A stretch of 25,836 nt of DNA from a virus (Duplodnaviria > Heunggongvirae > Uroviricota > Caudoviricetes), in IMG/VR virus record IMGVR_UViG_2526164601_000026; one strand, given 5' to 3'. A model generated the notes under the pieces. That model was not told the DNA's origin, did not search any database, and was given only the letters and a program-made list of their open reading frames with translations. The position numbers were made by a program, and so were the translations under genes. Shown here piece by piece: positions 536 through 19,029 of this stretch; position 1 is the first letter of the stretch; each line of letters begins with the position of its first letter.

Positions 536-841
536 AGTTATACTCCTTGTTGGGTACTAAAGACGCTTGAATATACAGCTAACATTACTTTACTAGGGAT
601 AATAATTGATTTTCTTACCGAACTATGGGTACTGAACGCTTTGGCATCTTTTATTACAGGTGGTTACTGCTGATGGCATAAGAGTATTATCAGTATTGGT
701 AGAAAAATAAAACAGAAATTTTCTGTAATACCCCATTTATCAAGACGCCTTTATATTTCTAACGTCTGTATCTGGCTAAGGGGCAGTCAGGTTTAGAACT
801 GTGCAATAGTTGCGTTTGTTCGAATCCGGCGCGGCCACTGT

Positions 842-3133: not shown

Positions 3134-4196
3134 GGCCAGACTCGCTGTCGGTGGTTTTCAGGAATAAATTAAGCGTGCCAGTTTCCTGCAGAATTCCAGT
3201 AGGCAGATGCCAGCCCGTGTCGGACAGCACCCATGGGGTACCGGCAAATCCGAACTTACGGAAGGCGACATTGTTAACATCAATCGCAGCTCTGGCTGCT
3301 TTCAGGCATGTTTCATCTGCAGGCGTTGTTTCTTCTGATGGCGTCATCATTCCGTTATCTGCGGAATACAGTCGGTGCCAGCTGGCAGCACGTTTCTGAG
3401 CATCTTTTTCACACAGCAGTGGTGCCACACGGTCGGTGGATTCCTCTCCACCAATAACTGAAACCGGGTAGATAACGACATTGAAGTCGCTGGCCAGGCG
3501 TTTTAAGGCCGGCTCCAGAAGTCTGCAGTTAGGACAGGCAGGATCGAGAAATGCGAACAGGGTTCGTTCATGACCGGATGACAGGTTGATGGTAAACATG
3601 CCCCGATCGGCGTTCCGCTTCAGAACAGTAGCCAGATTATGTCGCGCAGCTGCGGCTTCCGGATTTTTGCTTGTGATTGTTTTCTCCGGTACCTGGACGT
3701 CTTTTTTCGGGGGAACCGGGAGTTGAATGCCTTCATTTAATGGCACAGTGTGATTCAGGTGAGGGGGAAGCAGTCGTGGCTCACCTGCTGTCTGTACTGC
3801 TTCAGGCGTTGTATCATCCCAGAATACACGATCAACATAGCGGAACAGAGAGAAGCCAATCGTTGCCATTACGAACAGCACAACGCTGGCGATTATGCCA
3901 CGGAACAAAGGTGTTCTGCTGAAGCGGCGTTCCATCAGATATTCAAGGCGCAGGCAGGAATCAATAGCTGTAAGTATCTGGTCAGCGTTATGCTCCTGTT
4001 TATCAATCAGGACGGTTTCTCTGTTACGGGTGCCCATGGCGTCAAAGGCTATATGAATCAGTTGATTATTTCGTGTTACCAGCCCTGACAGGGCATCCCG
4101 TGGAAGGACGGCAATAATTTCTGTCCTGCCATCCGGCCAGATTGCCTGCACGGAAATATGTTTTGCAATGCGTGTTGCAAAGTACTCGATTGTCAT
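3126..4196 (-). CDS. Membrane-anchored thioredoxin-fold protein with CxxC motif (DsbA/DsbC-like; TrbB-like)
   Basis: 356-aa ORF. Single internal TM helix (LFRGIIASVVLFVMATIGFSLF) and C-terminal FLDPACPNC thiol-disulfide motif. A GGAG RBS lies in the 18-nt spacer after the upstream gene. Confidence 0.65.
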   Translation of the reverse strand: MTIEYFATRIAKHISVQAIWPDGRTEIIAVLPRDALSGLVTRNNQLIHIAFDAMGTRNRETVLIDKQEHNADQILTAIDSCLRLEYLMERRFSRTPLFRGIIASVVLFVMATIGFSLFRYVDRVFWDDTTPEAVQTAGEPRLLPPHLNHTVPLNEGIQLPVPPKKDVQVPEKTITSKNPEAAAARHNLATVLKRNADRGMFTINLSSGHERTLFAFLDPACPNCRLLEPALKRLASDFNVVIYPVSVIGGEESTDRVAPLLCEKDAQKRAASWHRLYSADNGMMTPSEETTPADETCLKAARAAIDVNNVAFRKFGFAGTPWVLSDTGWHLPTGILQETGTLNLFLKTTDSESGHE

Positions 4197-4214
4197 TTTC
4201 AGTTCTCCGGATAA

Positions 4215-5423
4215 TCAGAATTCGTTGTCTGTAGCAGGTGTGCGGGGCAGGATGTCGTCGGTGAGGGACCAGTTGGTCAGGATGCGGCGTTTCCGGTCGC
4301 GATCTGGTTGTGGTTCATCCCAGATAAGACCGAGACTGAGCATATCCCGCCGTAAGCCTTCCACCGCTTCATCAACACAGGGTTCAGGGCAGGGAAGACC
4401 AAAACGCATGGCTTCGGCCTCTGCACGTGCAACGGCCACCACGCCAGCGCCTTCAATAAATCCTTTCGTGGTATTGGCGCGGTGTAATGCATAAAACAGC
4501 GTCCTGTCCACGCCTTTCAGCCAAATCCAGTTGGGTGGCGTAAGCCGCAGGTCATGTGCATACAGCCAGACCAGCCCACTGCGGACGTAGCGATGTTGTT
4601 TCAGCCATTGCTGTGCTCCGTTGCTTTTAATCACTCTCTGGAAAGCTGATTTGGCCAGTGAATAAACAGGGGTACAGAATTTCCCACTGTCCCGTTTGCT
4701 TTTAATTCTGCATGAGAGGTTCAGTGTATCCATGAGCTTTAATGCTGCCTTACGATCATCCAGGAAATACTGAAGACCAAATATGGCAAAGAGCGCTTTT
4801 TCATGTGGTGCCATGTCTTTCCAGGACGTTAAAGGTTTACCCAACTGGGCCATGAAACATCGTCTTGCAGCTGCAACATCGAGCTGCATATTGGTGATGA
4901 GAGTATGCTGCTCGACAAATGCTTCCGGGGTGAGAGCAACCCGCCGTTCAGGTCGTTTGCCACCATGAAAGAGTTTTTCCGGATCACCATCTGCCAGTAC
5001 AGGGGCGATAGCAGGGGACAACGAAGCAAAGATGTGTGGCAGTCGGGTAATATCTACTGGTCTGCGGGTGAAACGACTTTGTCCCGGATGTTGATACCAC
5101 TCCCACAAACACCAGAGTGTCACAGGTAAGAGGTACATCCACAGAATACCTATGGTCTGCTCCATGACGTTAACCCACTGGCTATAGCTTATGTTGGCGG
5201 CGTTGTTACCGGTCATGGCAAGCAGGTTGTATCGTGGTGCTGCATAGTTATGAAATGGTCCCCAGTCAACCAGTCCCCATAAGGTATGAAGAATCAGGCA
5301 GCTGGCGTAAACCACTTCCGGCAAGAATAACCATATAACGAATAGCAGCAGGATAAGAAGGACACCAACAGCGCCCCATATCTGCATAGGATCTTCTGCG
5401 ACAGGCTGTCGATTGTAAGACAT
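4215..5423 (-). CDS. Inner-membrane protein (DotM/IcmP-like; TrbA-like), first gene of the coupling-module operon
   Basis: 402-aa ORF. N-terminal TM helices (GAVGVLLILLLFVIWLFLPEVVYASCLILHTLWGLV; IGILWMYLLPVTLWCLW) then a soluble domain. GGAG RBS 8 nt upstream of ATG. Family assignment is by architecture and gene order only. Confidence 0.5.
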   Translation of the reverse strand: MSYNRQPVAEDPMQIWGAVGVLLILLLFVIWLFLPEVVYASCLILHTLWGLVDWGPFHNYAAPRYNLLAMTGNNAANISYSQWVNVMEQTIGILWMYLLPVTLWCLWEWYQHPGQSRFTRRPVDITRLPHIFASLSPAIAPVLADGDPEKLFHGGKRPERRVALTPEAFVEQHTLITNMQLDVAAARRCFMAQLGKPLTSWKDMAPHEKALFAIFGLQYFLDDRKAALKLMDTLNLSCRIKSKRDSGKFCTPVYSLAKSAFQRVIKSNGAQQWLKQHRYVRSGLVWLYAHDLRLTPPNWIWLKGVDRTLFYALHRANTTKGFIEGAGVVAVARAEAEAMRFGLPCPEPCVDEAVEGLRRDMLSLGLIWDEPQPDRDRKRRILTNWSLTDDILPRTPATDNEF

Positions 5424-5583
5424 GACAAAGTCTCCATTTCTGGAATTTAAATCAAACGGAAAGGTTAAAAATTTATTTGCAGGCGATAAGAGCTAACCAG
5501 AGGAATTAGCCGTGCGATAAAAGGATTGTTGCAGATACGAAAGTCGTTAGAATAGCTGCGGGCGCTTGAGGCTGTATGCCGAA

Positions 5584-7366
5584 AGCGTTTTGTGGACGGT
5601 ATACAGCAGAAAGCCCCTGGAGATTTTTTTATCAATCAACCAAGGGCTCTACTGTAATGCCTAGACAACATTATAGTAGCCCGATAACCGCCGGAAGGCA
5701 ATGGAGGGGCTATGATGTGTTAACACCAAGCTGTAATGTCCCCTTTCGTAACCATTCTAAAATGTCCCCACGACAATTCTCTGGGGGAGTTTTTCTATGA
5801 TCAAAGAGACTGTTACGATGAGTCATAAGGAACTCCACCGACTTCAGATTATTCAGGAGTCAATTAATCGACATATTACTCAGGAACAAGCTGCGGCACG
5901 CATTGGCATTTCTATTCGGCAGGTTAAACGTCTGGTGCAACGGTATAGAAATGAAGGGCCTTCTGGTCTGGTTTCCCCCCGACGTGGAAAGCGTCCTAAT
6001 AATTCCTTTCTACTGATTCAGAGCAACAGTAATTTCACTCCTCAAAGGCCGTTACGCTGATTTTGGACCTACGTTTGCGTGCGAAAAATTGCGTGAGATA
6101 CACGGTTTATCTTTATCCGTTGAAACTCTCAGAAAGTGGATGATAGAAGAGGGGTTATGGCGTGAACGCCGTCGTAAAATTGCCCGTATATATCAACGCC
6201 GCATGCGACGACCATCTTACGGTGAACTGATCCAGATTGATGGCTCACCTCATGACTGGTTTGAAAATCGAGGCCCCAGATGTACACTGATCGTTTTCAT
6301 TGATGATGCCACCAGTGCGTTGATGGCGTTGCGTTTTGTGCCTGCTGAAACAACCCGGGCTTACATGGAAACCCTCCGGGGTTACCTTAATGATCATGGC
6401 GTACCGCTCGCTCTCTACTCTGATAGACACAGTATATTCAGGGTAAATAACCCAGAGCGGGAAGGTGAGCTGACCCAGTTCACTCGTGCGATAAAGACAC
6501 TGGGCATCGAGCCAATCCATGCCAACAGCCCGCAGGCAAAAGGGCGGTAGAGCGCGCCAATCAGACACTACAGGACAGGCTGGTCAAAGAAATGCGGCTT
6601 CAGAATATCAGTGATATTGAAACAGCAAATGCATGGTTGCCGACCTTTATTGAAGCCTATAACAACCGGTTCGCTACGTCGCCTCGTACTACTGATAATG
6701 CTCATCTTGATGTGCACCATTCTGAAGAGGAACTGGGTTATATCTTCAGCCTACAGGCGAAGCGCGTTCTGTCTAAAAATCTCACTTTCCAGTACAAAAG
6801 CAGTGCGTTTCAGGTACGCAGTGAGGGCCGGGGATATCGACTTAGGCATTCGGTTGTTACTGTATGCGAGAACTTTGACGGTGAAATTAACGTTCTGTAT
6901 GACGGGAAAGCGCTGGGCTGGGAAAAGTATGTTGATGGCCCGGAGCCTATACCACTGGATGATGAAAAGAGTGTCCATGAACGAGTGGATAATGCCCGTA
7001 TTGATTTACGCTCAAAATACTATGTTAAACCTAAAGCTGACCATCCCTGGCTTACGCGCCGAACGCAAAGTCATCAGCAAGTTAAGCCCCCGAAGTTACC
7101 TAAAAAGAAGCCTGATCCCGATAAAAAAGATTGAAACCAAGATCGATTCGGTTGAGTGCATATCCATTCATAGGGTAGATTCTTAAGTCGCGTTTCTGGT
7201 GTTCATTTTCGGGTGGTTTGTTACTTGTTTTACCGGGGATATGCCAGAAACGCGCTGAGTCAGTCTGGGCGGTGCGCGTAATGAGGCGTTATGGCAAATA
7301 GCCTATGCTAATGTCCGCTAAGAGCAAGAAGCGGAAGTTGGCAGTTTGTGGACTGTCCCCACAAAA
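5584..7366 (+). mobile_element. Degenerate insertion sequence (approximate boundaries)
   Basis: Encloses the frameshifted transposase. Imperfect inverted similarity between the left end (gttttgtggacgg, ~5584) and the reverse complement of the right end (ttttgtggggacag, ~7345-7366). Boundaries are uncertain and no target-site duplication was identified. Confidence 0.3.
5797..7134 (+). pseudogene. DDE (rve-type) transposase with N-terminal HTH, split into three frames by two frameshifts
   Basis: ORFs 5797-6060, 6089-6550 and 6592-7134 are consecutive pieces of one ~445-aa transposase (HTH ...IGISIRQVKRLVQRY...; integrase core ...LIQIDGS...IVFIDDATS...). Frame breaks near 6035-6060 (T run) and 6545-6552 (gggcggtag, G run). 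Family guess ISNCY/IS481-like, not verified. Confidence 0.65.
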
Positions 7367-7532
7367 GTGACTACAGAAATAGTTGCAATTCATAATTGAT
7401 CATGGGTTGTCAGTTAAACTCGTGGCGATTTAAATAGACTAATTGGGAGTGCGTCCATTACTTATATCTTGTAATGTTAACTATCAGAAATGATACAAAG
7501 ATAATATGTCTTTAAAGAAAAGGCTGATGGCG

Positions 7533-7555
7533 AAAAGTGGCCCGATGAGGGCCAC
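7533..7555 (-). terminator. Putative rho-independent terminator downstream of flxA
   Basis: Hairpin gtggccc-gatga-gggccac, followed on the minus strand by TTTTCGCC. Confidence 0.35.
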
Positions 7556-7565
7556 AATACGGCTG

Positions 7566-7901
7566 TCACTTAGACGTAAATATCAATGGTGCCAGCGGTA
7601 TTTGTATCGTCTTTTTCTCTTCTTTTTTATCAGGCTGAACTGTCGCGTCTTCATTCTTTTTCTCTGCCTGCTGCCTTAACAACTGCTCCAGTTGAGCCCA
7701 GAGGCTTTCAATTTGCTTCTGTACCAATGCAGCCATTTCTTTTTTCTGCTGTGTCGTCATCCCCTCTTCCGATGAGATTTTCCCAAGCTTTTCAGTCAGC
7801 ACCTGAATTTGTCTTGTGATTTTGGCTATTTCTGATGTTCCTTCCGGGGCGGAGTTGTTTGAAATAACGGTTGAGGTATTTCCCTGAATTGTGACAGACA
7901 T
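7566..7901 (-). CDS. flxA: FlxA-like protein (prophage gene of the flagellar regulon)
   Basis: 111-aa ORF (MSVTIQGNTSTVISNNSAPEGTSEIAKITRQ...) matching my recollection of Qin-prophage FlxA. AGGAG RBS 7 nt upstream of ATG. Sigma-28 promoter immediately upstream. Confidence 0.65.
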   Translation of the reverse strand: MSVTIQGNTSTVISNNSAPEGTSEIAKITRQIQVLTEKLGKISSEEGMTTQQKKEMAALVQKQIESLWAQLEQLLRQQAEKKNEDATVQPDKKEEKKTIQIPLAPLIFTSK

Positions 7902-7924
7902 AGATTTCTCCTTTTAAAAAAGCA

Positions 7925-7951
7925 CTATCGGCATGCACAAAAAAATCTTTA
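7925..7951 (-). promoter_or_regulatory. Sigma-28 (FliA)-type promoter for flxA
   Basis: Minus strand reads TAAAGATT-N11-GCCGATAG against consensus TAAAGTTT-N11-GCCGATAA. The -10 element ends about 24 nt upstream of the flxA ATG. Confidence 0.55.
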
Positions 7952-8397
7952 ATCGTATTTCTTGTGTCATTAATTGTTTGATGTTCAGATTGTTTTCCTC
8001 GCGGGCTGGCGCGCCTCAGAAAGTAAAGCTTGTTGACAGGGGTAAACGTTCGGCAATAATTTTCTGCCGCATGCGGGTGTTGCATAAAACGTGCTACGTT
8101 CCTTTATCGACAGGTCAGGTCACCGCTCACCCGCCGACGAGAAAGCAACACTGACATGCTAAAGCAAAAAATAGATGAATAAGTTGAGTTGTGCATATGT
8201 AGCCTGACCGTCACAAAGTATATGGTGTCTGTACCAGTAAGATGATGGCCGGACTCTTTAAAAACGAGCTGACCTGCACAATACAGGATTGGACTTAGCA
8301 ATGGCTGCTCCTGGCACAAAGCGGACAGTGATCACCGTTCTTACGACTACTTTCTGACTTCCTTCGTGACTTGCCCTAAGCATGTTGTAGTGCGATA

Positions 8398-8424
8398 CTT
8401 GTAATGACATTTGTAATTACAAGA
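8398..8424 (+). promoter_or_regulatory. relBE operator/promoter region
   Basis: gtaatgacatttgtaattacaagagg, with the palindrome ttgtaattacaa, directly upstream of the relB ATG; matches the known relO architecture. Confidence 0.45.
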
Positions 8425-8434
8425 GGTGTAAGAC

Positions 8435-8673
8435 ATGGGTAGCATTAACCTGCGTATTGACGATGAACTTAAAGCGCGTTCTTACGCCGCGCTTGAAAAA
8501 TGGGTGTAACTCCTTCTGAAGCGCTTCGTCTCATGCTCGAGTATATCGCTGACAATGAACGCTTGCCGTTCAAACAGACACTCCTGAGTGATGAAGATGC
8601 TGAACTTGTGGAGATAGTGAAAGAACGGCTTCGTAATCCTAAGCCAGTACGTGTGACGCTGGATGAACTCTGA
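8435..8673 (+). pseudogene. relB: RelB antitoxin, frameshifted as given (A5 run at 8496-8500)
   Basis: Translation MGSINLRIDDELKARSYAALEKWV then stop. The rest of RelB (GVTPSEALRLMLEYIADNERLPFKQTLLSDEDAELVEIVKERLRNPKPVRVTLDEL) continues in the +1 frame. One A appears to be missing relative to the K-12 gene as I recall it. Confidence 0.75.
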
Positions 8674-8961
8674 TGGCGTATTTTCTGGATTTTGACGAGC
8701 GGGCACTAAAGGAATGGCGAAAAGCTGGGCTCGACGGTACGTGAACAGTTGAAAAAGAAGCTGGTTGAAGTACTTGAGTCACCCCGGATTGAAGCAAACA
8801 AGCTCCGTGGTATGCCTGATTGTTACAAGATTAAGCTCCGGTCTTCAGGCTATCGCCTTGTATACCAGGTTATAGACGAGAAAGTTGTCGTTTTCGTGAT
8901 TTCTGTTGGGAAAAGAGAACGCTCGGAAGTATATAGCGAGGCGGTCAAACGCATTCTCTGA
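8673..8961 (+). pseudogene. relE: RelE mRNA-interferase toxin, frameshifted as given (A4 run at 8720-8723)
   Basis: ATG overlaps the relB stop (ATGA). MAYFLDFDERALKEWRK, then the frame is lost; the remainder (...KKKLVEVLESPRIEANKLRGMPDCYKIKLRSSGYRLVYQVIDEKVVVFVISVGKRERSEVYSEAVKRIL) is in another frame (ORF 8749-8961). Confidence 0.75.
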
Positions 8962-9032
8962 ACCAAAGCATGACATCTCTGTTTCGCACCGAAGGTGACA
9001 CTTCTGCTTTGCGTTGACAGGAGAAGCAGGCT

Positions 9033-9188
9033 ATGAAGCAGCAAAAGGCGATGTTAATCGCCCTGATCGTCATCTGTTTAACCGTCATAGTGACGGCACT
9101 GGTAACGAGGAAAGACCTCTGCGAGGTACGAATCCGAACCGGCCAGACGGAGGTCGCTGTCTTCACAGCTTACGAACCTGAGGAGTAA
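9033..9188 (+). CDS. hokD: Hok-family type I toxin (HokD/RelF-like)
   Basis: 51-aa ORF MKQQKAMLIALIVICLTVIVTALVTRKDLCEVRIRTGQTEVAVFTAYEPEE, with a single TM helix. Sits downstream of relBE as in the Qin prophage. Confidence 0.8.
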   Translation: MKQQKAMLIALIVICLTVIVTALVTRKDLCEVRIRTGQTEVAVFTAYEPEE

Positions 9189-9255
9189 GAGACCAGGCGG
9201 GGGAGAATCCCTCGCCACCTCTGATGTGTCAGGCATCCTCAACGCACCCGCACTT

Positions 9256-9282
9256 AACCCGCTTCGGCGGGTTTTGTTTTTT
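9256..9282 (+). terminator. Rho-independent terminator (3' end of hok transcript)
   Basis: aacccgc-ttcg-gcgggtt hairpin followed by TTGTTTTTT. Confidence 0.5.
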
Positions 9283-9354
9283 CCTAGCATTCTGGTTTAC
9301 AATTCGCACGCCAGCCTGAACAACTGGCACCTGCTGCGCCAGCAGAGACAACCG

Positions 9355-9633
9355 ATGGCGCACGATACCAAATTACACAATTCTGATGATTCTGCCGTCT
9401 TTGCCAGCAGGCACGGGCGGCGTTCCCGCACTTTCAAATCTGACTGGTTCCAGCATCCCCCATGCACTGAAGAACAGGCCGAGTGGCTAATTCAGTGCTA
9501 CCGCAGACACGGATACGAGATTAAGAAAGCCCTCAGCCTCGATTATCGTCACTGGATAATCTCCGTCAGGCTTCCTTACTCCGAGCGCCCACCGCGTCCG
9601 TCCCGCACATTCCAGCAACGCATCTGGAGGTAA
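9355..9633 (+). CDS. Rem-like small prophage protein
   Basis: In-frame ATG downstream of the hok terminator; MAHDTKLHNSDDSAVFASRHGRR.... The track ORF 9226-9633 would read through the terminator, so the shorter start is preferred. Position matches rem in Qin; function unknown. Confidence 0.4.
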   Translation: MAHDTKLHNSDDSAVFASRHGRRSRTFKSDWFQHPPCTEEQAEWLIQCYRRHGYEIKKALSLDYRHWIISVRLPYSERPPRPSRTFQQRIWR

Positions 9634-9634
9634 C

Positions 9635-10684
9635 GTGCGGGTATTACTTCGACCTGTTCTGGTACCGGAACTCGGGCTGGTGATCGTTAAGCCGGGCCGT
9701 GAATCCATGCCGGTATTCCACAATACCCGGGTACTGGTGGAGCCGGAACCGAAAAGCATGCGTAATCTGCCGTCCGGGGTTGTTCCTGCCGTTCACCAGC
9801 CGCTAGTGGAAGACAAAACATTGCTGCCGTTTTTCAGTAACGCACGGGTGATTCGTGCTGCTGGTGGTGCTGGTGCATTGTCTGACTGGCTGTTGCGCCA
9901 TATTAAATCCTGCCAGTGGCCACACGGCGATTATCATCACAGCGAAACCGTCATTCACCGTTATGGTACCGGCGCAATGGTGTTGTGCTGGCACTGCGAC
10001 AACCAGCTGCGTGACCAGACATCCGAATCACTCGAGCAACTTGCTCATCAAAACCTGTCAGCATGGATGATTGACGTCATCGGTCACGCAATAAGCGGTA
10101 CGCAGGAGCGTGAATTATCTCTGGCTGAATTATCCTGGTGGGCGGTCTGCAATCAGGTGGCGGACGCGCTTCCGGAGGCAGTATTACGTCGTTCTCTGGG
10201 GTTACGTGCGGAAAAAATCCGCCCCTTGTACCGCGAAAGCGACATCGTACCGGGAGAGCAGACCGCCATCAGCATACTGAAACAGCGCACAAAAAATCTT
10301 GCGCCGCTGCCTCACGCCCACCAGCAACAGAACCCACCACAGGAAAAGACGGTGGTCAGCATTGCCGTTGATCCTGAGCCTCCGGAATCTTTCATGAAAC
10401 GACCTAAACGTCGCCGCTGGGTTAACGAGAAATACACACGCTGGGTGAAGACACAGCCGTGTGCGTGTTGTGGTAAGCCAGCCGACGATCCCCATCACCT
10501 GATTGGTCATGGTCAGGGCGGAATGGGGACAAAATCTCACGATATTTTCACGCTACCGCTGTGTCGGGAGCATCACAACGAGCTTCATGCGGATCCGCTG
10601 GCGTTCGAAGAAAAGCATGGTTCTCAGGTTGATTTAATTTTTCGTTTTCTTGATCACGCCTTTGCAACTGGCGTGCTTGGGTAA
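9635..10684 (+). CDS. DUF968/YdfU-like protein with HNH-like Cys/His motif
   Basis: 349-aa ORF with C-terminal CACCGKPADDPHHLIGHG...CREHHNELH motif. Position between rem and rusA/Q as in Qin-type prophages. Confidence 0.6.
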   Translation: MRVLLRPVLVPELGLVIVKPGRESMPVFHNTRVLVEPEPKSMRNLPSGVVPAVHQPLVEDKTLLPFFSNARVIRAAGGAGALSDWLLRHIKSCQWPHGDYHHSETVIHRYGTGAMVLCWHCDNQLRDQTSESLEQLAHQNLSAWMIDVIGHAISGTQERELSLAELSWWAVCNQVADALPEAVLRRSLGLRAEKIRPLYRESDIVPGEQTAISILKQRTKNLAPLPHAHQQQNPPQEKTVVSIAVDPEPPESFMKRPKRRRWVNEKYTRWVKTQPCACCGKPADDPHHLIGHGQGGMGTKSHDIFTLPLCREHHNELHADPLAFEEKHGSQVDLIFRFLDHAFATGVLG

Positions 10685-10696
10685 AAGAGGTGACTG

Positions 10697-11053
10697 ATGC
10701 TCATAGATTTGGTTTTACCTTACCCGCCGACGGTGAACACTTACTGGCGACGCCGTGGCAGCACATATTTTATCTCGGAGGAGGGAAAGCGTTATCGCCG
10801 GGCTGTGGCGCTTATTGTTCGCCAGCAGCGGCTGAAATTAAGCCTGTCCGGAAGGCTGGCGATAAAGGTGATTGCAGAGCCACCGGATAAGCGTCGTCGC
10901 GACCTGGACAACATTCTGAAAGCACCGCTGGATGCGCTGACGCATGCGGGAGTGTTAATGGACGATGAGCAGTTTGATGAAATCAATATCGTTCGTGGTC
11001 AGCCAGTATCTGGTGGACGTCTGGGGGTGAAGATTTACCCCATAATGCATTAA
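10697..11053 (+). CDS. rusA: RusA-family Holliday junction resolvase
   Basis: 118-aa ORF containing the RusA-like core RRRDLDNILKAPLDALTHAGVLMDDEQ. AAGAGG RBS upstream. Confidence 0.75.
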   Translation: MLIDLVLPYPPTVNTYWRRRGSTYFISEEGKRYRRAVALIVRQQRLKLSLSGRLAIKVIAEPPDKRRRDLDNILKAPLDALTHAGVLMDDEQFDEINIVRGQPVSGGRLGVKIYPIMH

Positions 11054-11067
11054 GAGCAGGTCAAAAA

Positions 11068-11889
11068 ATGAAACTGGAAGATTTACCGAAATACTACTCC
11101 CCAAAATCCCCTGGCCTGACCGATGCATCGGCCTCAACGTCAAAAGATGCGCTGAGTATCACTGATGTGATGGCCGCGCAGGGCATGACACAGAATCGGG
11201 CTGAGATGGGTTTTTCTGCGTTCCTGGGGAAAATGGGCATCAGTATGAATGACAGGGCGCGGGCAACAGAATTACTGGCAGATTATGCACTCAGTCGGTG
11301 CGATCGTGTGGCGGCGTTGAGAAAACTTCCGGCAGAAATAAAACCGGTAGTGATGCGCATTATGGCTTCGTACGCTTTTGAGGATTATGCCCGCAGCGCA
11401 GCGAGTAAAAAGCAGTGCCCTTGTTGCTATGGGGAAAAATTTATTGAAAGCATAGTTTTTACAAACAAGGTCCAGTATCCGGATGGTAAGCCGCCGGTAT
11501 GGGCAAAGTGTACGAAAGGTGTGTATCCGTCTTACTGGGAAGAATGGAAAAAAGTCAGGGAGGTGGTAAAAGTTGCCTGTCCGGAGTGTGGCGGAAAGGG
11601 TGAGGTTTCCACCGCCTGTAAGGATTGCCGTGGGCGTGGTGTCGCCATTCATCGTGAAGAGTCGGTAAAACGTGGTATGCCTGTTATCAGAGACTGCCAG
11701 CGTTGTGGTGGTCGTGGCTATGAAAGACTACCATCAACGGAGGCATTTAATGCTATATGCGAGGTGACAAACCAGATAACACGCGCGTCATGGGAAAAAA
11801 CAGTTAAGAAATTTTATGATGCGCTGGTGACCCGGTTTGATATTGAAGAAGCATGGGCTGAGCGGCAGTTAAAAAAGGTAACTAGGTAA
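11068..11889 (+). CDS. Late-gene antiterminator Q-like protein
   Basis: 273-aa ORF with Cys-rich zinc-binding motifs (CPECGGKGEVSTACKDCRGRG; CQRCGGRG). Located immediately upstream of the PR'/tR'-like region and the tRNAs. Confidence 0.6.
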   Translation: MKLEDLPKYYSPKSPGLTDASASTSKDALSITDVMAAQGMTQNRAEMGFSAFLGKMGISMNDRARATELLADYALSRCDRVAALRKLPAEIKPVVMRIMASYAFEDYARSAASKKQCPCCYGEKFIESIVFTNKVQYPDGKPPVWAKCTKGVYPSYWEEWKKVREVVKVACPECGGKGEVSTACKDCRGRGVAIHREESVKRGMPVIRDCQRCGGRGYERLPSTEAFNAICEVTNQITRASWEKTVKKFYDALVTRFDIEEAWAERQLKKVTR

Positions 11890-11894
11890 CAAGG

Positions 11895-11922
11895 TTGATT
11901 TTTCCGGAATCTGTGGTAAATT
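11895..11922 (+). promoter_or_regulatory. Candidate late promoter PR' (sigma-70 type)
   Basis: TTGATT-16 nt-TAAATT just downstream of Q stop and about 50 nt upstream of a terminator. Confidence 0.35.
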
Positions 11923-11969
11923 CGTCATAACGATGGGCGTTTTATGCCTGACGTTAGAAGAGTTTCTAC

Positions 11970-11995
11970 AACCCGCCGCTGAGCGGGTTTTTTAT
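11970..11995 (+). terminator. tR'-like rho-independent terminator
   Basis: aacccgc-cgctga-gcgggtt hairpin followed by TTTTTTATT. Confidence 0.5.
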
Positions 11996-12032
11996 TGCGA
12001 AATTAATTACGGACCGTTATTATTCTGCTCCC

Positions 12033-12108
12033 GGCCCTTTAGCTCAGTGGTGAGAGCGAGCGACTCATAATCGCCAGGTCGCTGGTTCAAATCCAGCAAG
12101 GGCCACCA
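12033..12108 (+). tRNA. ileZ: tRNA with CAU anticodon, ileX/ileZ-like (tRNA-Ile2)
   Basis: 76-nt cloverleaf: acceptor GGCCCTT/AAGGGCC, D-arm GCTCAGTGGTGAGAGC, anticodon loop CTCATAA, T-arm GCTGGTTCAAATCCAGC, encoded CCA. Closer to ileX than to elongator Met. Confidence 0.85.
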
Positions 12109-12209
12109 TCACAAACCGCCATTAGCTTATCAGGAAGAGCAGACGACACGATAACAGGGTTGTTGGTGCGGGGGGCGGGTCCCCGATGGCGATCCATTAT
12201 CGGTATTCA

Positions 12210-12286
12210 GCGTTGTTAGCTCAGCCGGACAGAGCAATTGCCTTCTAAGCAATCGGTCACTGGTTCGAATCCAGTACAGCGCGCCA
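12210..12286 (+). tRNA. argO: tRNA-Arg (UCU anticodon)
   Basis: 77-nt cloverleaf: acceptor GCGTTGT/ACAGCGC, anticodon stem-loop ATTGC-CTTCTAA-GCAAT, T-arm ACTGGTTCGAATCCAGT, encoded CCA. Confidence 0.85.
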
Positions 12287-12396
12287 TATTCATTCTTCCA
12301 GATTCCTTCCGGCAGAGCCTTATACTGAAATATACCTGGCTCAGGATATTGTTGAAAATATTATATGTTTGTCAAAAATAAAAGTTCTGTTAAGTA

Positions 12397-12750
12397 TTGA
12401 TTGAATATTTGTTATACGGTCTAATGGTTTTTTCAGCATTAAATATTTATCATTCATATGGTGTGGGTAGAGTGAATATTGATGAGGCGTCGGGGTGTTT
12501 CATCCTTAGGCAGCGTATTGATATAGTCAATGCAGCACGAGCAAAGGCCTTCAGCCGTTTGACAGTTTTGTTCTGTACTCCTGATCGTCTTTCGGGAAGA
12601 GACGTTATTATTCTGAATAGTGATGCTATACAGAGGGTTTGCGATGAGTTCATGGTTGCTAATTCAGAATTATTTGCTCTTGTTCAGGAGTACAACAGAA
12701 TAGCCAGGACCTGTGGTATGGATGAACTTCGGATTACTCATCTGGGGTAG
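12397..12750 (+). CDS. Hypothetical protein (cargo gene downstream of phage tRNAs)
   Basis: 117-aa ORF starting at TTG; the first ATG is at 12424. No clear RBS and no family recognised. AT-rich context. Confidence 0.3.
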   Translation: MIEYLLYGLMVFSALNIYHSYGVGRVNIDEASGCFILRQRIDIVNAARAKAFSRLTVLFCTPDRLSGRDVIILNSDAIQRVCDEFMVANSELFALVQEYNRIARTCGMDELRITHLG

Positions 12751-13141
12751 ATACATATCTGGATTATCACCTGTTACGGTAAAAAGTGATTGCTTACTGT
12801 TTTTGTGAATGGCATTGCAGCAGCCGGATAATGTCAGTGCTGGCTGACGGTGTGCTGGTGGCGGGTGTGGTGGTTGTTGCTTTCCCGTTGCTGAAAAAGA
12901 AAACGCCAGACTGTTAGCCGGGTATCAGTTAGCGGGAGAAATTTTTAAATACTTCACAATTCAGGCGGTTGACTGTTGTCTGGTTTGCGGGGAGTTTGTT
13001 AAAAGAAACTGGCATGGTGAATCCCCCTGTGCGGAGGGGCAATCAGCGAGTAGGTATATGGGATAATCGCGGATTCAGGTGCTGGTACTGAATTCACCGG
13101 GAGGCACCCGGCACCATGCAATGGCACATAGCGCCACTCTC

Positions 13142-13178
13142 CAGCCCCTCTCCGGAGGGGCTGTTTATATTGATTTTG
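13142..13178 (+). terminator. Rho-independent terminator-like hairpin
   Basis: cagcccctc-tccg-gaggggctg GC-rich stem followed by TTTATATTGATTTTG. Confidence 0.4.
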
Positions 13179-13197
13179 TCAGATGTGAGTAAACTCC

Positions 13198-13533
13198 TTA
13201 TGGATTTTGTTGTTTTAGCCCATAAGGACATATTTGCAGAGTGCAACGGTTATTAAAGCATTCATTCAATACGTTATCTGTATTTGTAGGGCATTCCTGG
13301 CTGTTTTTGATTAAATTCCAGAATGTTTTATTGAATGGTACTATGTTGTAAATGGTTACAGGTAGCACTTTGTTATTGAGCATGATACCTGTGTGAGTCA
13401 GTGTAAATATACTTTCAGGAGGTAAGAAAGCATCCGATTGATACCAGATTATTAATTTTATTTTACTCCATATGACTGAAAAAGATATTCCGCATGATGG
13501 CTGGATAACTGTATCAATCACAATCCACTTCAT
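13198..13533 (-). CDS. Hypothetical Cys-containing protein (AT-rich cargo gene)
   Basis: 111-aa ORF with AAGGA RBS 7 nt upstream of ATG. Strongly AT-rich; no recognisable family. Confidence 0.45.
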
Positions 13534-13777
13534 TTACTTTCCTTGTTTATGCCTTGCTGGTGATGTTCTGAAAAGTATAAATGATATTTTTGAATTAAAC
13601 CATAGAGCAGAATTATTTTTCTGATGTTGTTTATTGTTTATTTAAATACAGGGTGGTTTATATCTCGTCTTGTAGTTTATCCATGCATATCTGCTTGATA
13701 ATCAGGTTTTTATTTAAGGTATGGTTTTGTGTTTTTTCTGTATTACATGTCAGGTATTTTAAAGAATTATTTTTCAG

Positions 13778-15685
13778 ATGGTGGAAAGAACCATGGCATT
13801 TAAACACTATGATGTTGTCAGGGCGGCGTCGCCATCAGATCTTGCGGAAAAGCTGACACATAAACTGAAAGAGGGCTGGCAGCCGTTTGGTAGTCCGGTG
13901 GCCATAACCCCTTATACTCTGATGCAGGCGATTACAGCAGAAGGTGATGTGGTGGTCAGTGGTGCAACTGAGCCGGATTGGTACTACGTCATCGTACTGG
14001 CCGGGCAGTCCAATGCCATGGCTTACGGTGAAGGGCTTCCGCTGCCGGATTCATACGATGCTCCGGATCCGCGCATTAAACAGCTGGCGCGCCGCAGTAC
14101 AGTGACGCCGGGTGGGGCTGCCTGCAGATATAACGATATTATTCCGGCCGACCACTGCCTGCATGATGTGCAGGATATGAGTACGCTGAATCATCCGAAG
14201 GCAGACCTGAGCAAAGGGCAGTACGGCTGTGTCGGCCAGGGCTTACATATTGCCAAACGTCTGCTGCCGTATATCCCCAAAAATGCCGGGATTCTTCTTG
14301 TTCCCTGCTCCCGTGGTGGTTCGGCATTCACCCAGGGCGCGGAGGGGACATTCAGTGCGGACACGGGGGCCAGCCAGGATTCGGCGCGCTGGGGTGTGGG
14401 TAAACCGTTATATCAGGACCTGATTGCGCGCACTAAAGCTGCATTACAGAAGAACCCGAAAAATGTGTTGCTGGCGGTGTGCTGGATGCAGGGAGAGTTT
14501 GACATGAGCGCCGCCACCTACGCACAGCAACCTGCGCTGTTTACAGCCATGCTGAAGCAGTTTCGTGCTGACCTCACTGTGTTTAACGCGCAGTGTCATG
14601 GTGGCAGTGCTGTAAATGTGCCGTGGATTTGTGGTGACACGACGTATTACTGGAAAAATACATACGCTACCCAGTACGACACCGTGTACGGCGGGTATAA
14701 AAACAGGGAGAGTGAGGGCGTTTATTTTGTGCCCTTCATGACAGACGGTAACGGCGTCAATACCGCCACTAACGCGCCGGCAGAAGATCCGGATATTCCG
14801 GCATCAGGATATTACGGTGCGGCATCGAGAACGAATGGAAACCAGGTATCATCAAACCGCCCGACACATTTCAGTTCATGGGCGCGCAGGAGCATTATTC
14901 CGGATCGTCTGGCAACCGCTATTCTGAACGCAGCCGGGCGCACCTCCGCCTTCATCAGTGGTAAGGCACCGGAAATCAAACCCTCGCCCGGCGGCAACAC
15001 GCCATCGGGTCCGTCTGCAGATACGTCCGTTCGCACAATCTCCCTGCTGCCGGCAGCCGGAGAGGCTGCTGCGCAGGGCTGGAGCATTAAGGATGGCGGA
15101 ATTCAGTTGTCAGATGGTGTATTTAAGATCACCAAGCAGAGCAATAAAACCTGGTCCCTGACGCATCCGGTGGATGACGCAATTACCCTGCTGACACAGG
15201 GCGGCAGACTGACCTGTAAGTTCCGCCTGTCAGGCGCACTGACCAACAATCAGTTCGGGCTGGGGATTTATCTGTATACGGATGCTCCCGTTCCTGATGG
15301 TGTGGCGATGACGGGTACCGGTAATCCGTTCCTGATGTCGTACTTCACTCAGACCACTGACGGCAGAGTGAATCTGATGCATCACAGGAAAGCCGGAAAC
15401 ACGAAGCTGGGGGAGTTCGGCGATTACGGTAACGACTGGCAGACGCTGGAGCTGGTGTTCACCGCCGGCAGTGCCACGGTTACTCCGAAACTGAATGGAG
15501 TGGCTGGCCCGGCATTCCAGGTTATAAAAGACAGTCTGACACTGGGACTGAATGCGCTGACGCTGACGGATGTTACAAAAAATGCAGCGTATGGCGTTGA
15601 GATAGAAAGTCTGGTGCTGGAGATAAATGCACCGGCAGCATATAAAAAAGAGCCAGCGACTGACCTGAAAGAAGACGCTGGCTAA
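13778..15685 (+). CDS. nanS-p: NanS-p-like prophage sialate O-acetylesterase (N-terminal DUF1737-like plus SASA esterase domain)
   Basis: 635-aa ORF. N-terminus MAFKHYDVVRAASPSDLAEKLTHKLKEGWQPFGSPVA; esterase motif region VIVLAGQSNAMAY. Occupies the position downstream of Q/tRNAs typical of Stx-phage nanS-p. Alternative start at 13793. Confidence 0.7.
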   Translation: MVERTMAFKHYDVVRAASPSDLAEKLTHKLKEGWQPFGSPVAITPYTLMQAITAEGDVVVSGATEPDWYYVIVLAGQSNAMAYGEGLPLPDSYDAPDPRIKQLARRSTVTPGGAACRYNDIIPADHCLHDVQDMSTLNHPKADLSKGQYGCVGQGLHIAKRLLPYIPKNAGILLVPCSRGGSAFTQGAEGTFSADTGASQDSARWGVGKPLYQDLIARTKAALQKNPKNVLLAVCWMQGEFDMSAATYAQQPALFTAMLKQFRADLTVFNAQCHGGSAVNVPWICGDTTYYWKNTYATQYDTVYGGYKNRESEGVYFVPFMTDGNGVNTATNAPAEDPDIPASGYYGAASRTNGNQVSSNRPTHFSSWARRSIIPDRLATAILNAAGRTSAFISGKAPEIKPSPGGNTPSGPSADTSVRTISLLPAAGEAAAQGWSIKDGGIQLSDGVFKITKQSNKTWSLTHPVDDAITLLTQGGRLTCKFRLSGALTNNQFGLGIYLYTDAPVPDGVAMTGTGNPFLMSYFTQTTDGRVNLMHHRKAGNTKLGEFGDYGNDWQTLELVFTAGSATVTPKLNGVAGPAFQVIKDSLTLGLNALTLTDVTKNAAYGVEIESLVLEINAPAAYKKEPATDLKEDAG

Positions 15686-15857
15686 AAGGCCTTATATGTT
15701 TGTAGATGATACTTATATTTGGCAGTACATTTTCTGACAGACAGTGACGGGTGTTGTCAAGATATTGTGTCATTTATAACCTGAATCAGGGGGGCCGGAA
15801 TGTTATCTGGCATTTTTAGCAGAGCCTGAATGCCATAATCACGGCTCCCGGAGTTGG

Positions 15858-15892
15858 CCGTCAGTGGGTGACACTGGCGGTTTTTTTGTTTT
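15858..15892 (+). terminator. Rho-independent terminator upstream of lysis cassette
   Basis: ccgtcagtg-ggtga-cactggcgg hairpin followed by TTTTTTTGTTTTT. Confidence 0.5.
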
Positions 15893-15937
15893 TCTTTACT
15901 TTCATTTTCTGTCGGCGGTGACGGAGACATACATCAG

Positions 15938-16144
15938 ATGGAAAAAATCACAACAGGTGTGTCATACACCACGTCAGCGGTGGGGACGGGATACTGGTTA
16001 CTGCAGCTGCTGGACAAAGTCTCTCCGTCCCAGTGGGTGGCAATAGGTGTGCTGGGAAGTCTGCTGTTTGGCCTGCTGACGTATCTGACTAACCTGTATT
16101 TCAAAATCAGAGAGGACCGTCGTAAGGTGGCGCGGGGAGAGTAG
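15938..16144 (+). CDS. S: Class II holin / pinholin (S21-like)
   Basis: 68-aa [71 protein letters not shown] with two TM helices. GGAG RBS 11 nt upstream. Confidence 0.85.
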
Positions 16145-16399
16145 TCGATGAATAAACAATACGAACTGGTTGTAAAATGAATATTTCTAACTGAAAAAAC
16201 GTTCCATGAGGTAAGAAAAGGTCACAGGCAATCAATAACAGGACGTGATGAAAGACCCTTGCATTTGTGCGCTTTCTCTTTAGATAGCAGCAGATACTGA
16301 AAATCTGAGTTGTCGGGGAGTCAGGGATACAGCTGTGCAAGAGTTGGTCATTGTGATTCCATTGAAATCCTGTATGCCATGAAGGGCAGGATTTTATGG

Positions 16400-16714
16400 C
16401 TACCTGAGCTTTGGTGATAGTAAGTTGAAAATTCGCATTTTTTGCTGACATGCGTAACGAGAATCCCATAAGCAGGGAGGACTTAATTCTTCATTAACCC
16501 ATGCGTTGATATTATGTTTCAGCCGTTGAAGCATCAGCGGTGTTAATGTTGTGGTAATAATATCCAGCGTTTTATGTGAGATCTTACCGTAAGGGTCTGC
16601 AAGAATGCTGCTTGTTGCTTCGTTATTATCTGCCATCAGAAGAAGTAACTCTGATTTAACGTTTTCTGTCATTAGTTGTAAAAATCTTCTGCGCAAACTT
16701 TCTTTACTGTTCAT
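16400..16714 (-). CDS. Hypothetical protein encoded antisense between holin and endolysin (possibly YdfR-like)
   Basis: 104-aa ORF in the 690-bp gap between S and R on the opposite strand. Weak RBS. Qin has a ~103-aa gene (ydfR) between its holin and endolysin, but homology is not verified. Confidence 0.3.
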   Translation of the reverse strand: MNSKESLRRRFLQLMTENVKSELLLLMADNNEATSSILADPYGKISHKTLDIITTTLTPLMLQRLKHNINAWVNEELSPPCLWDSRYACQQKMRIFNLLSPKLR

Positions 16715-16831
16715 TTATATGGCTTCATTTGTTGTAATCTGCTGCGTCTCAAGGGATATGTTTATGAGAGCGACCATGAGTGTTGGATTATATACCTAAC
16801 ATATCAAGGGATTAGAAATCGATAAATCCCC

Positions 16832-17365
16832 ATGCACGAAAAAATAAAATACGGCCTGTCGGCTGCCGTTCTGGCGCTGATTGGTGCAGGTGCTTCTGCG
16901 CCTGAAATCCTCGACCAGTTTCTGGATGAAAAGGAAGGTAACCACACCACGGCATACCGTGATGGTGCGGGGATCTGGACCATCTGCCGTGGTGCCATTC
17001 TGGTGGATGGTAAGCCTGTTATTCCTGGCATGAAGCTGTCAAAGGAAAAATGCGACCGGGTTAATGCCATCGAACGTGACAAGGCGCTGGCATGGGTGGA
17101 GAAAAACATCCGGGTGCCGCTGACCGAACCCCAGAAAGCGGGGATCGCGTCATTCTGTCCGTACAACATTGGCCCCGGTAAGTGCTTCCCGTCGACGTTT
17201 TATAAACGAATTAATGCAGGCGATCGAAAAGGTGCCTGTGAGGCGATTCGCTGGTGGATTAAGGACGGTGGCAGAGACTGCCGTATCCGTTCAAATAATT
17301 GCTACGGTCAGGTCTCACGGCGTGACCAGGAGAGCGCGCTGGCGTGCTGGGACATCGACAGATAG
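16832..17365 (+). CDS. R: SAR endolysin (phage lysozyme, GH24, R21-like)
   Basis: 177-aa ORF. N-terminal signal-anchor-release segment YGLSAAVLALIGAGASAPEIL, then lysozyme core (EGNHTTAYRDGAGIWTICRG...). Confidence 0.85.
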   Translation: MHEKIKYGLSAAVLALIGAGASAPEILDQFLDEKEGNHTTAYRDGAGIWTICRGAILVDGKPVIPGMKLSKEKCDRVNAIERDKALAWVEKNIRVPLTEPQKAGIASFCPYNIGPGKCFPSTFYKRINAGDRKGACEAIRWWIKDGGRDCRIRSNNCYGQVSRRDQESALACWDIDR

Positions 17366-17454
17366 CAGAATATTTTCCTGAAAAATGACGTTGGCCAACG
17401 CGGGTGGATAACACGAAATCCTGAAAACTGGTAAAACCTAAGTGAATAAAAGTA

Positions 17455-19011: not shown

Positions 19012-19029
19012 GTGTCATATATAAGTCGT

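What the first reader, a model, noticed from the sequence alone, without database searches (positions are those of the whole stretch)
8398..9290. relBE-hokD toxin-antitoxin cluster with both relB and relE disrupted but hokD intact
The relO-like operator and the overlapping relB/relE arrangement (ATGA) are preserved, but both genes carry single-base homopolymer indels that truncate them after 24 and 23 codons. hokD is intact with its terminator, though I could not identify a convincing antisense Sok promoter by eye. If the indels are real, inactivation of toxin and antitoxin together suggests selection against RelE activity.
Basis: partly seen in the sequence, partly recalled or inferred. Interest (0 to 1): 0.4.

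Follow-up and report, generated by a model that had tools for sequence, protein, structure and literature searches.

The report
Probable sequencing frameshifts in relBE-hokD
The two frameshifts that break the relB antitoxin and relE toxin genes are in the sequence, but they belong to a tight cluster of single-base errors confined to a repeated mobile element, so this is most likely an ordinary relB-relE-hokD locus that was assembled imperfectly.

Summary
relB has an A6->A5 deletion (after 8495), relE an A3->A4 insertion (8720), and hokD with its terminator is intact. Reverting the two bases gives relBE DNA 527/527 identical to E. coli K-12.

The frameshifts are not special to relBE. They are 2 of 14 single-base indels found only in this window, and all 14 lie inside one 3.3-kb ISEsa1-family transposon (5718-9018: transposase, flxA, ydfV, relB, relE). 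That stretch has 1 substitution. There are no indels in 5.7 kb to the left or 6.6 kb to the right (P ~ 3e-10). The transposase, flxA, ydfV and, further away, the phage large terminase are broken in the same way. Five of the indels are non-homopolymer insertions within 50 bp.

The transposon's two flanks do not match. The left flank is the pnd leader of an IncI1 plasmid; the right flank is prophage hokD. This copy therefore sits at a repeat-mediated join between two replicons. The best reading is uncorrected consensus error in a multi-copy repeat (about 0.8), not selection against RelE.

No Sok is found next to hokD because the transposon separated the sok/mok leader from the hok ORF. A Sok-family match lies at 5560-5717.

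Side finding: these relBE-carrying transposons insert at hok start codons in several genera.

The parts
5560..5717 (+). hok/sok-type leader (pnd of the IncI1 plasmid) with the Sok-family element, ending exactly at the transposon's left end
   Evidence: Rfam RF01794 sok, 133.7 bits, full model 1-157. The same match is present in pDEC9B-1. The flank ...ATGGAGGGGCTATGATG| abuts the element.
5718..9018 (+). ISEsa1-family (IS1202 family) transposon copy carrying transposase, flxA, ydfV, relB and relE. Its ends are TGTTAACACC... and ...CTTTGCGTTGAC. All 14 window-private indels of the left half of the window lie inside it.
   Evidence: The same unit is flanked by 16-17-bp target duplications in pDEC9B-1, in two sites of AP024281 and in Qin-type prophages. 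Terminal inverted repeats match 19/26. Indel list.
5797..7186 (+). transposase gene (466 aa when intact), split here into several ORFs by single-base indels at 6009, 6015 and 6545
   Evidence: ORFs. Intact 466-aa gene in L007. PGAP name 'IS1202-like element ISEsa1 family transposase'. Indels.
7566..7901 (-). flxA, with its C-terminus altered by a T6->T5 deletion at 7611
   Evidence: The same T5 variant occurs in other assemblies that have intact relBE.
8104..8410 (-). ydfV, frameshifted by an inserted T at 8289 (split into 50-aa and 71-aa ORFs)
   Evidence: 0 of 25 comparator loci share the insertion.
8398..8434 (+). relBE promoter/operator (relO) region with TTGTAAT repeats and Shine-Dalgarno sequence
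   Evidence: Identical to K-12 across 8380-8434 (A1). The function is taken from the literature on K-12 relBE; it was not tested here.
8435..8673 (+). relB (79 codons when intact). The A6->A5 deletion after 8495 gives a 24-aa product. The native Met23 codon at 8500 opens a 57-aa ORF covering the rest of RelB.
8673..8961 (+). relE (95 codons when intact). The A3->A4 insertion at 8720 gives a 23-aa product. The remaining 70 codons are open only from a TTG at 8749.
   Evidence: The allele is absent from every other sequence examined.
9019..9032 (+). right-hand copy of the target duplication, which supplies the Shine-Dalgarno sequence (AGGAG) and the start of hokD
   Evidence: The uninterrupted hokD locus of strain B1_2 is shown.
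9033..9188 (+). hokD (relF), intact, 51 aa
   Evidence: 156/156 nt identical to K-12 hokD. Annotated hokD in the references. Pfam HOK_GEF on the identical product.
9256..9283 (+). intrinsic terminator-like hairpin and T-run downstream of hokD

Best explanation
The locus is the ordinary relB-relE-hokD (relBEF) operon. In its intact form, RelB represses the operon at relO and neutralises the ribosome-dependent mRNA endonuclease RelE, and hokD is co-transcribed downstream without its own Sok control. Here the operon sits at the right end of a 3.3-kb ISEsa1-family transposon inserted at the translation start of a hok-family gene. The two frameshifts are most likely not biological. They are uncorrected single-base consensus errors of the assembly in a multi-copy element. 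The likely route is a long-read or otherwise indel-prone consensus that could not be polished inside a repeat; this route is inferred. This copy also forms the join between IncI1-plasmid sequence and prophage sequence. Shown here: the indels, their confinement to the transposon, their absence elsewhere, and the mismatched flanks. Inferred: that they are errors and how they arose, because no reads were available.
For: (1) Against the nearest relative of window 1-9023 (plasmid pDEC9B-1, 99.8%), the window has 3 substitutions. It also has 14 single-base indels between 5747 and 8720, all inside the transposon. There are none in 1-5717. There are also none in 9019-15640 against three prophage references. 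P(all 14 in the element) = 3.5e-10; Fisher test against the rest of the window 2e-9 to 5e-9.
(2) Inside the element the indel:substitution ratio is 14:1. Real decay on that scale would be expected to bring many substitutions.
(3) For 12 of the 14 indels, none of 17-28 comparator loci (plasmids, K-12, Shigella, Logan and ENA contigs) shares the window's state.
(4) Every gene in the element is hit, namely the transposase, flxA, ydfV, relB and relE, as are non-coding stretches. Further window-private homopolymer indels break the large terminase (20320, 21606, 21613).
(5) Five of the indels are non-homopolymer insertions within 50 bp at the element's left end (A2). That pattern fits a poor local consensus, not mutation.
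(6) Apart from the two bases, relBE is 527/527 identical to K-12.
(7) The element's flanks do not form a target duplication: pnd-type on the left, hokD-type on the right. The genome must therefore hold, or have held, at least two copies of the element, which is the situation in which repeats escape polishing or get joined wrongly. No complete genome or plasmid has this join.
(8) The individual homopolymer variants recur independently in other public assemblies. flxA T5 occurs with intact relBE. relB A5 or A8 occurs with intact relE, often in visibly indel-rich contigs.
Against: No reads were available, so the error status is inferred. The relB A5 allele is not unique. The 57-aa RelB fragment is on 146 contigs. 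These include two otherwise clean Logan contigs (L014, L016) and one complete genome, ET846, where relB is annotated as frameshifted with relE intact. The relB deletion alone could therefore be a genuine slippage allele. I could not show that indel-bearing prophage segments are more repeated than indel-free ones (both have 4 places in DEC9B). The source assembly and its sequencing technology were not identified.
Confidence: 0.8

Rival explanations
1. The indels are real and recent. This transposon copy is a decaying, non-functional copy in which relB, relE, the transposase, flxA and ydfV have all been frameshifted by replication slippage, for example in a mutator background. hokD would remain and be transcribed from a derepressed relBE promoter.
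For: Most of the deletions sit in homopolymers. The relB A-run varies in length in other genomes: A5 and A8 occur, including ET846 and both copies in AP024281. Frameshifted relB with intact relE evidently exists in public genomes.
Against: 14 indels against 1 substitution in 3.3 kb, with 0 indels in 12.3 kb of flanks, does not match any mutational spectrum I know of; a mutator would also hit the flanks. Five non-homopolymer insertions lie within 50 bp. 12 of the 14 are seen in no other sequence. The relE A4 allele is absent from 5,426 complete E. coli genomes and from three large contig collections.
Confidence: 0.12
2. One reading: toxin and antitoxin were inactivated together because RelE activity was selected against. 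For instance, relB was lost first and relE loss was then selected.
For: Losing relB first would make loss of relE advantageous, and relB-frameshift alleles exist elsewhere.
Against: In those other genomes relE stays intact. That may be because the 57-aa ORF from Met23 keeps the RelE-binding C-terminus (inference). So relB frameshifts evidently do not force relE loss. In this window the neighbouring unrelated genes carry the same kind of lesion, so nothing singles out relBE. There is no substitution signal of relaxed or positive selection.
Confidence: 0.05
3. The plasmid-transposon-prophage arrangement is genuine, either a cointegrate or an integrated IncI1 plasmid. It would have formed by recombination between two transposon copies, or by replicative transposition into the hokD hot spot. 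Only the small indels would be artefacts.
For: The left flank is pnd-type and the right flank hokD-type. Both halves are near-identical to replicons of one strain background: pDEC9B-1 at 99.8% and the DEC9B chromosome at 100% over 9400-10850. Chromosomally integrated IncI1 sequence exists elsewhere (L120).
Against: No complete genome or plasmid in the collections shows the join. A 3.3-kb repeat shared by a plasmid and a prophage is a classic cause of chimeric contigs, and the error cluster sits exactly on that repeat.
Confidence: 0.35

Closest known systems
E. coli K-12 relBEF operon (relB-relE-hokD/relF) of the Qin prophage
   Same: The promoter/operator, the ATGA overlap, the relE-hokD spacer and hokD are identical. 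relBE is 527/527 identical once the two bases are reverted. Co-transcription of relBE with relF/hokD is documented for K-12 (PMC3598666; PMC5120126).
   Different: As written, both relB and relE are frameshifted. The context upstream of the transposon is an IncI1 plasmid (trbABC and the pnd leader), not Qin. K-12 keeps only the right part of the transposon (ydfX'/ydfW onward).
[quoted passage not shown]
   Same: The Hok-family ORF and its terminator are present. A Sok-family element is present in the window at 5560-5717. In the uninterrupted prophage locus (strain B1_2), the sok match runs up to the hokD start codon.
   Different: The sok/mok leader and the hok ORF are separated by 3.3 kb of transposon and come from different hok homologues (pnd and hokD). 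hokD is therefore not under cis Sok control. This agrees with the literature statement that relBE integrated into the ancestral hokD locus (PMC6379469, citing Ramisetty and Santhosh 2016).
ISEsa1 / IS1202-family insertion sequences
   Same: The transposase is named by PGAP as ISEsa1 family. The first ~1.6 kb is shared with elements in many enterobacteria. The 16-17-bp target duplications are typical of the long-TSD subgroup of the family (PMC10132070).
   Different: ISfinder's ISEsa1 is listed as 1609 bp with no detectable TSD (PMC10132070). The unit bounded by inverted repeats and duplications here is 3.3-4.6 kb, carries cargo, and ends with relBE.
Residual indel errors in repeats of polished long-read or hybrid assemblies
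   Same: Single-base indels, mostly in homopolymers, are confined to a multi-copy element, with clean unique flanks and almost no substitutions.
   Different: The technology and reads of the source assembly are unknown. Five of the indels are not in homopolymers. This comparison rests on general knowledge of assembly artefacts, not on a test.

Membership tests
RelBE type II toxin-antitoxin (E. coli relBE) | Intact antitoxin ORF (RelB, 79 aa, ribbon-helix-helix N-terminus plus RelE-binding C-terminus) | tested here: not met
   As written, the ORF stops after 24 codons. Adding one A restores 79 aa identical to K-12 RelB.
RelBE type II toxin-antitoxin (E. coli relBE) | Intact toxin ORF (RelE, 95 aa) | tested here: not met
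   As written, the ORF stops after 23 codons. Removing one A restores 95 aa identical to K-12 RelE.
RelBE type II toxin-antitoxin (E. coli relBE) | Bicistronic antitoxin-toxin order with overlapping stop/start, and the relO promoter/operator upstream | tested here: met
   The ATGA overlap is at 8670-8673. Positions 8380-8434 are identical to K-12.
RelBE type II toxin-antitoxin (E. coli relBE) | Toxicity of RelE and its neutralisation and autoregulation by RelB | not testable with these tools
   Requires cloning and expression.
[quoted passage not shown] | Hok-family toxin ORF of about 50 aa | tested here: met
   hokD at 9033-9188 is identical to K-12. Pfam HOK_GEF is recorded for the identical product.
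[quoted passage not shown] | Cis-encoded Sok antisense RNA and mok leader directly upstream of and overlapping the hok start | tested here: not met
   There is no Rfam sok match and no promoter-like site in 8300-9400. The only sok match is at 5560-5717, separated from hokD by the transposon.
[quoted passage not shown] | 3' fold-back (fbi) element and terminator on the hok mRNA | tested here: inconclusive
   A terminator-like hairpin is found at 9256-9283. The fold-back pairing with a 5' partner was not examined.
IS1202-family (ISEsa1-like) transposon | Family transposase gene next to one end | tested here: met
   Homologous to the 466-aa gene of L007, which PGAP names ISEsa1 family. In the window it is broken by indels.
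IS1202-family (ISEsa1-like) transposon | Terminal inverted repeats | tested here: met
   TGTTAACACCAAGCTG... and the reverse complement of the right end TGTCAACGCAAAGCAG... match at 19 of 26 positions.
IS1202-family (ISEsa1-like) transposon | Direct target-site duplication flanking the copy | tested here: not met
   Other copies have perfect 16-17-bp duplications (pDEC9B-1, AP024281 twice, 97-3250). In the window the left flank is ATGGAGGGGCTATGATG and the right flank AGGAGAAGCAGGCTATG, so this is a hybrid copy.

The most novel reading that the evidence does not exclude
The novel reading is independent of the two frameshifts. relBE appears to be the conserved right-end cargo of a family of ISEsa1-type transposons of 3.3-4.6 kb with variable middle cargo. 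These transposons insert preferentially, to within about 4 nt, at the Shine-Dalgarno/start codon of hok-family toxin genes in plasmids and prophages of several enterobacterial genera. Each insertion cuts hok off from its Sok/mok control and places it behind the RelB-regulated promoter. That would explain the origin of the classical relBEF operon and why hokD lacks Sok. It would also mean that ISfinder's 1609-bp ISEsa1, listed with no target duplication, is an under-delimited element. The window's copy, with a pnd-type left flank and a hokD-type right flank, would then mark a transposon-mediated link between an IncI1 plasmid and a lambdoid prophage.
Probability: 0.55. Interest if true: 0.5.

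Novelty: already known. Interest (0 to 1): 0.2.

Why it matters
As a claim about toxin-antitoxin biology, joint loss of RelB and RelE under selection, it matters little, because the evidence points to sequence error. It matters in practice. Pseudogene calls inside repeated mobile elements of otherwise clean assemblies should not be read as biology without read support. The same homopolymer variants (relB A5/A8, flxA T5) recur across public assemblies and have entered protein databases as truncated 'RelB' entries. The surrounding structure is the more useful result. It shows concretely why hokD has no Sok next to it, and it places relBE on a mobile element that repeatedly lands on hok start codons.

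Tried and rejected
1. Finding the source contig, to learn its technology or see the same indels elsewhere. Exact 29-mer scans for the relE A4 allele in viral, genome and metagenome contigs all returned 0. The 50-aa YdfV fragment is not on record. The 70-aa RelE fragment is on 3 short ENA contigs, and in the one case I could read (L017) a transposase gene lies between relB and the relE fragment, so the cause is different. The 180-aa transposase-region ORF and TrbA are too common to be diagnostic.
2. Testing whether indel-bearing prophage segments are more repeated than indel-free ones. The terminase segment (with indels) and the DUF968 segment (without) both have 4 places in the DEC9B chromosome. 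This was inconclusive at megablast resolution.
3. No promoter-like site and no Rfam hit were found. The stretch is the transposon's right end.
4. Considered that the window is a known phage-plasmid or cointegrate. No record in PLSDB, the phage collection or the complete E. coli genomes spans the join.
5. Considered that the 3.3-kb unit is a 1.6-kb IS that mobilised flanking DNA through a surrogate end. No internal right-end-like repeat lies near 1.6 kb, and the same relBE-proximal end is kept in variants with different cargo. So the distal end looks like the true end.

Full report
**1. The observation**

- relB starts at 8435. The A6 run of the references is A5 in the window, and the frame ends at 8509 after 24 codons.
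- relE starts at 8673 in the ATGA overlap. CGAAAGC has become CGAAAAGC (extra A at 8720), and the frame ends at 8744 after 23 codons.
- hokD (9033-9188) is 156/156 identical to K-12 hokD. A hairpin plus T-run lies at 9256-9283.
- The promoter/operator stretch 8380-8434 is identical to K-12.
- Reverting the two bases yields relBE DNA 527/527 identical to K-12.

**2. The frameshifts are not specific to relBE**

Window 1-9023 is 99.8% identical to the IncI1 plasmid pDEC9B-1. The base-by-base comparison shows 3 substitutions. It also shows 14 single-base indels between 5747 and 8720, and none in 1-5717.

Window 9019-25836 is a lambdoid prophage late region. It is 99.3-99.7% identical to prophages of strains B1_2, DEC9B and AUSMDU00014361. 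There is no indel in 9019-15640 against any of the three.

Comparison with 17-28 further loci (K-12, other E. coli, Shigella, plasmids, Logan/ENA/JGI contigs) shows:
- 12 of the 14 indels occur in no other sequence;
- the flxA T6->T5 change occurs in 8 loci;
- the relB A5 change occurs in 4 loci.

The indels break the transposase (6009, 6015, 6545), change the flxA C-terminus (7611), break ydfV (8289), relB (8495) and relE (8720), and also hit non-coding sequence (5747-5796, 7344).

Five of them are non-homopolymer insertions within 50 bp at 5747-5796 (A2).

The probability that all 14 fall in this 3.3-kb stretch of the 15.6 kb compared is 3.5e-10. Against the rest of the window, Fisher's test gives 2e-9 to 5e-9.

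More window-private homopolymer indels sit in the large terminase gene (20320, 21606, 21613) and near 15642-15792.

**3. What the 3.3-kb stretch is**

It is a transposon. Its ends, TGTTAACACC... (5718) and ...CTTTGCGTTGAC (9018), are imperfect inverted repeats matching at 19 of 26 positions.

In other records the same unit is flanked by direct duplications of 16-17 bp:
- ATGGAGGGGCTATGATG in pDEC9B-1 and a second IncI1 plasmid;
- ACTGTAAAGCCAGCAAC and AGCCTCGTTTCATCGCC at two chromosomal sites of AP024281;
- AAGGAGAAGCAGGCTAT in Qin-type prophages, perfect in strain 97-3250.

Its transposase is named by PGAP as 'IS1202-like element ISEsa1 family'. The passenger genes are flxA, ydfV, relB and relE. 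K-12's ydfX'/ydfW are the remnant of the transposase end.

**4. Why hokD has no Sok beside it**

Rfam's sok model matches the window at 5560-5717 with 133.7 bits over the full model, ending exactly at the transposon's left end. Nothing matches near hokD.

In strain B1_2, whose prophage lacks the transposon, the sok match runs straight into the hokD start codon. The insertion therefore duplicated the Shine-Dalgarno sequence and part of the start codon. It left the sok/mok leader on the left and the hok ORF on the right, directly behind relBE.

This agrees with the documented co-transcription of relBE with relF/hokD (PMC3598666; PMC5120126). It also agrees with the statement that relBE integrated into an ancestral hokD locus (PMC6379469). 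No promoter-like site is found there.

**5. The copy in the window is a hybrid**

Its left flank is the pnd-type duplication of the plasmid. Its right flank is the hokD-type duplication of the prophage. Diagnostic substitutions show the element is pDEC9B-1-like at least up to about 8317.

No complete E. coli genome, PLSDB plasmid or phage record contains this join. Two origins are possible:
- a real plasmid-prophage recombinant or cointegrate mediated by two copies of the transposon;
- a chimeric contig joined through the shared 3.3-kb repeat.

Both require at least two copies of the element in the genome.

**6. Best explanation**

The facts to account for are:
- a cluster of single-base indels confined exactly to a multi-copy element;
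- clean unique flanks;
- a 14:1 indel:substitution ratio;
- lesions in every gene and in non-coding DNA of the element;
- a burst of five insertions in 50 bp;
- no other sequence sharing 12 of the 14.

Together these are the signature of an uncorrected consensus in a repeat, not of mutation or selection. I put this at about 0.8. The underlying locus is then a normal relBEF operon.

The main caveat concerns relB. The 57-aa RelB fragment produced by A5 or A8 alleles is on 146 contigs. It occurs in two otherwise clean Logan contigs (L014, L016). It also occurs in the complete genome ET846, where relB is annotated as frameshifted and relE is intact. So the A-run is either a real slippage hot spot or a recurrent error site, and the relB deletion taken alone could be genuine.

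The relE insertion is different. It was found nowhere else: not in 5,426 complete E. coli genomes, not in viral, genome or metagenome contigs, and not in any fetched locus.

**7. The selection hypothesis**

In genomes where relB is frameshifted, relE remains intact. Loss of full-length RelB therefore does not visibly force loss of RelE. One possible reason is that the ORF from the native Met23 keeps the RelE-binding C-terminus; this is inference and was not tested. In this window unrelated neighbours carry the same lesions. Nothing supports targeted selection against RelE.

**8. Side finding**

A search with the intact transposase in one-genome-per-species contigs shows the first ~1.6 kb of the unit in many enterobacterial genera. 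That length corresponds to ISfinder's ISEsa1, which is listed as 1609 bp with no detectable TSD (PMC10132070).

Where the right side is within reach, the unit continues through variable cargo to the same relBE module and the same right end:
- flxA-ydfV in the 3.3-kb form;
- a cytochrome-b561-like gene plus a cation-efflux gene in a 4.6-kb form (Kluyvera L045), which has a 16/17 duplication at a non-hok site;
- transporter and LysR genes in Kluyvera L054, which has a 14-bp duplication at a hok homologue.

Most left flanks are hok leaders ending at the Shine-Dalgarno/start codon of different hok homologues: AAGGAGAAGAAGGCCAT, AAGGAGAAGAAGCCATG, AGGAGAAGTACGCTATG, AAGGAGGGAAGGCTATG, AGGAGATGTTAGCCATG, pnd and hokD. 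Rfam sok matches end exactly at the element's left end in five of these loci. This suggests a strong target preference for hok translation starts.

I did not find this described in the papers I could search. The library is incomplete, and ISfinder and TnCentral could not be consulted.

**9. Verdict**

- The biological interpretation is not supported.
- The distinguishing feature is most probably an assembly artefact in an already known operon.
- Interest in the finding as stated is low.
- The transposon context is the part worth a follow-up.

Noticed in passing
window 5718-9018; also L005 11718-15017, L007 7204-10518, L008 7204-10518, L045 3927-8525, L054 3927-8412: relBE is the conserved right-end cargo of ISEsa1-family transposons of 3.3-4.6 kb with variable middle cargo. 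The units are bounded by 19/26 inverted repeats and 16-17-bp target duplications. ISfinder lists ISEsa1 as 1609 bp with no TSD (PMC10132070).
   Followed up: partly
left flanks of L035, L036, L039, L042, L044, L046, L051, L054 (position ~3926); window 5701-5717 and 9019-9035: These transposons sit at the Shine-Dalgarno/start codon of at least seven different hok-family genes in several genera. Rfam sok matches end exactly at the element's left end in five of these loci. This looks like a target-site preference that uncouples hok from Sok and places it behind relBE.
   Followed up: partly
window 1-5717 versus 9019-25836: The window joins IncI1 plasmid sequence (trbC, trbB, trbA and the pnd leader; 99.8% to pDEC9B-1) to a lambdoid prophage late region (DUF968 gene, rusA, Q antiterminator gene, tRNAs, lysis genes, terminase, portal; 99.3-99.7% to prophages of DEC9B and B1_2). 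The join runs through the transposon, whose target duplications do not match. It is either a cointegrate or integrated plasmid, or a chimeric contig.
   Followed up: partly
window 20168-22094 (indels at 20320, 21606, 21613): The phage large terminase gene is split into 483-aa and 181-aa ORFs by three window-private homopolymer indels. All three closest prophages have an intact 642-aa gene.
   Followed up: partly
window 15642-15792: Relative to three prophage references, the window has an A-run two bases shorter at 15642 and a 1-base deletion at 15792. It also lacks about 139 bp at 15706-15720, where the alignment breaks into two overlapping pieces. This may be a repeat-length difference or another assembly defect.
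   Followed up: no
relB A-run: L007-L010 (A8), L012-L014, L016 and L034 (A5): The A6 run of relB is length-variable in public assemblies. The resulting 57-aa 'RelB' starting at Met23 is recorded on 146 contigs, always with intact relE where checked. Either this is a real slippage hot spot giving an N-terminally truncated antitoxin, or it is a recurrent sequencing error that has entered protein databases.
   Followed up: partly
window 12983-13172, 12033-12105, 12210-12283: There is an Rfam STnc100 sRNA match (132 bits), and two tRNA genes lie downstream of the Q antiterminator gene. In B1_2 these are annotated tRNA-Ile and tRNA-Arg. This is as in related STEC/EPEC prophages.
   Followed up: no
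L007 and L008 (AP024281.1, 3305437-3325610 and 3501104-3521277): Two copies of the 3.3-kb relBE transposon lie at unrelated chromosomal sites, each with a perfect 17-bp duplication. Both carry the relB A8 frameshift with intact relE. This suggests recent transposition of a copy that already lacked full-length RelB.
   Followed up: no
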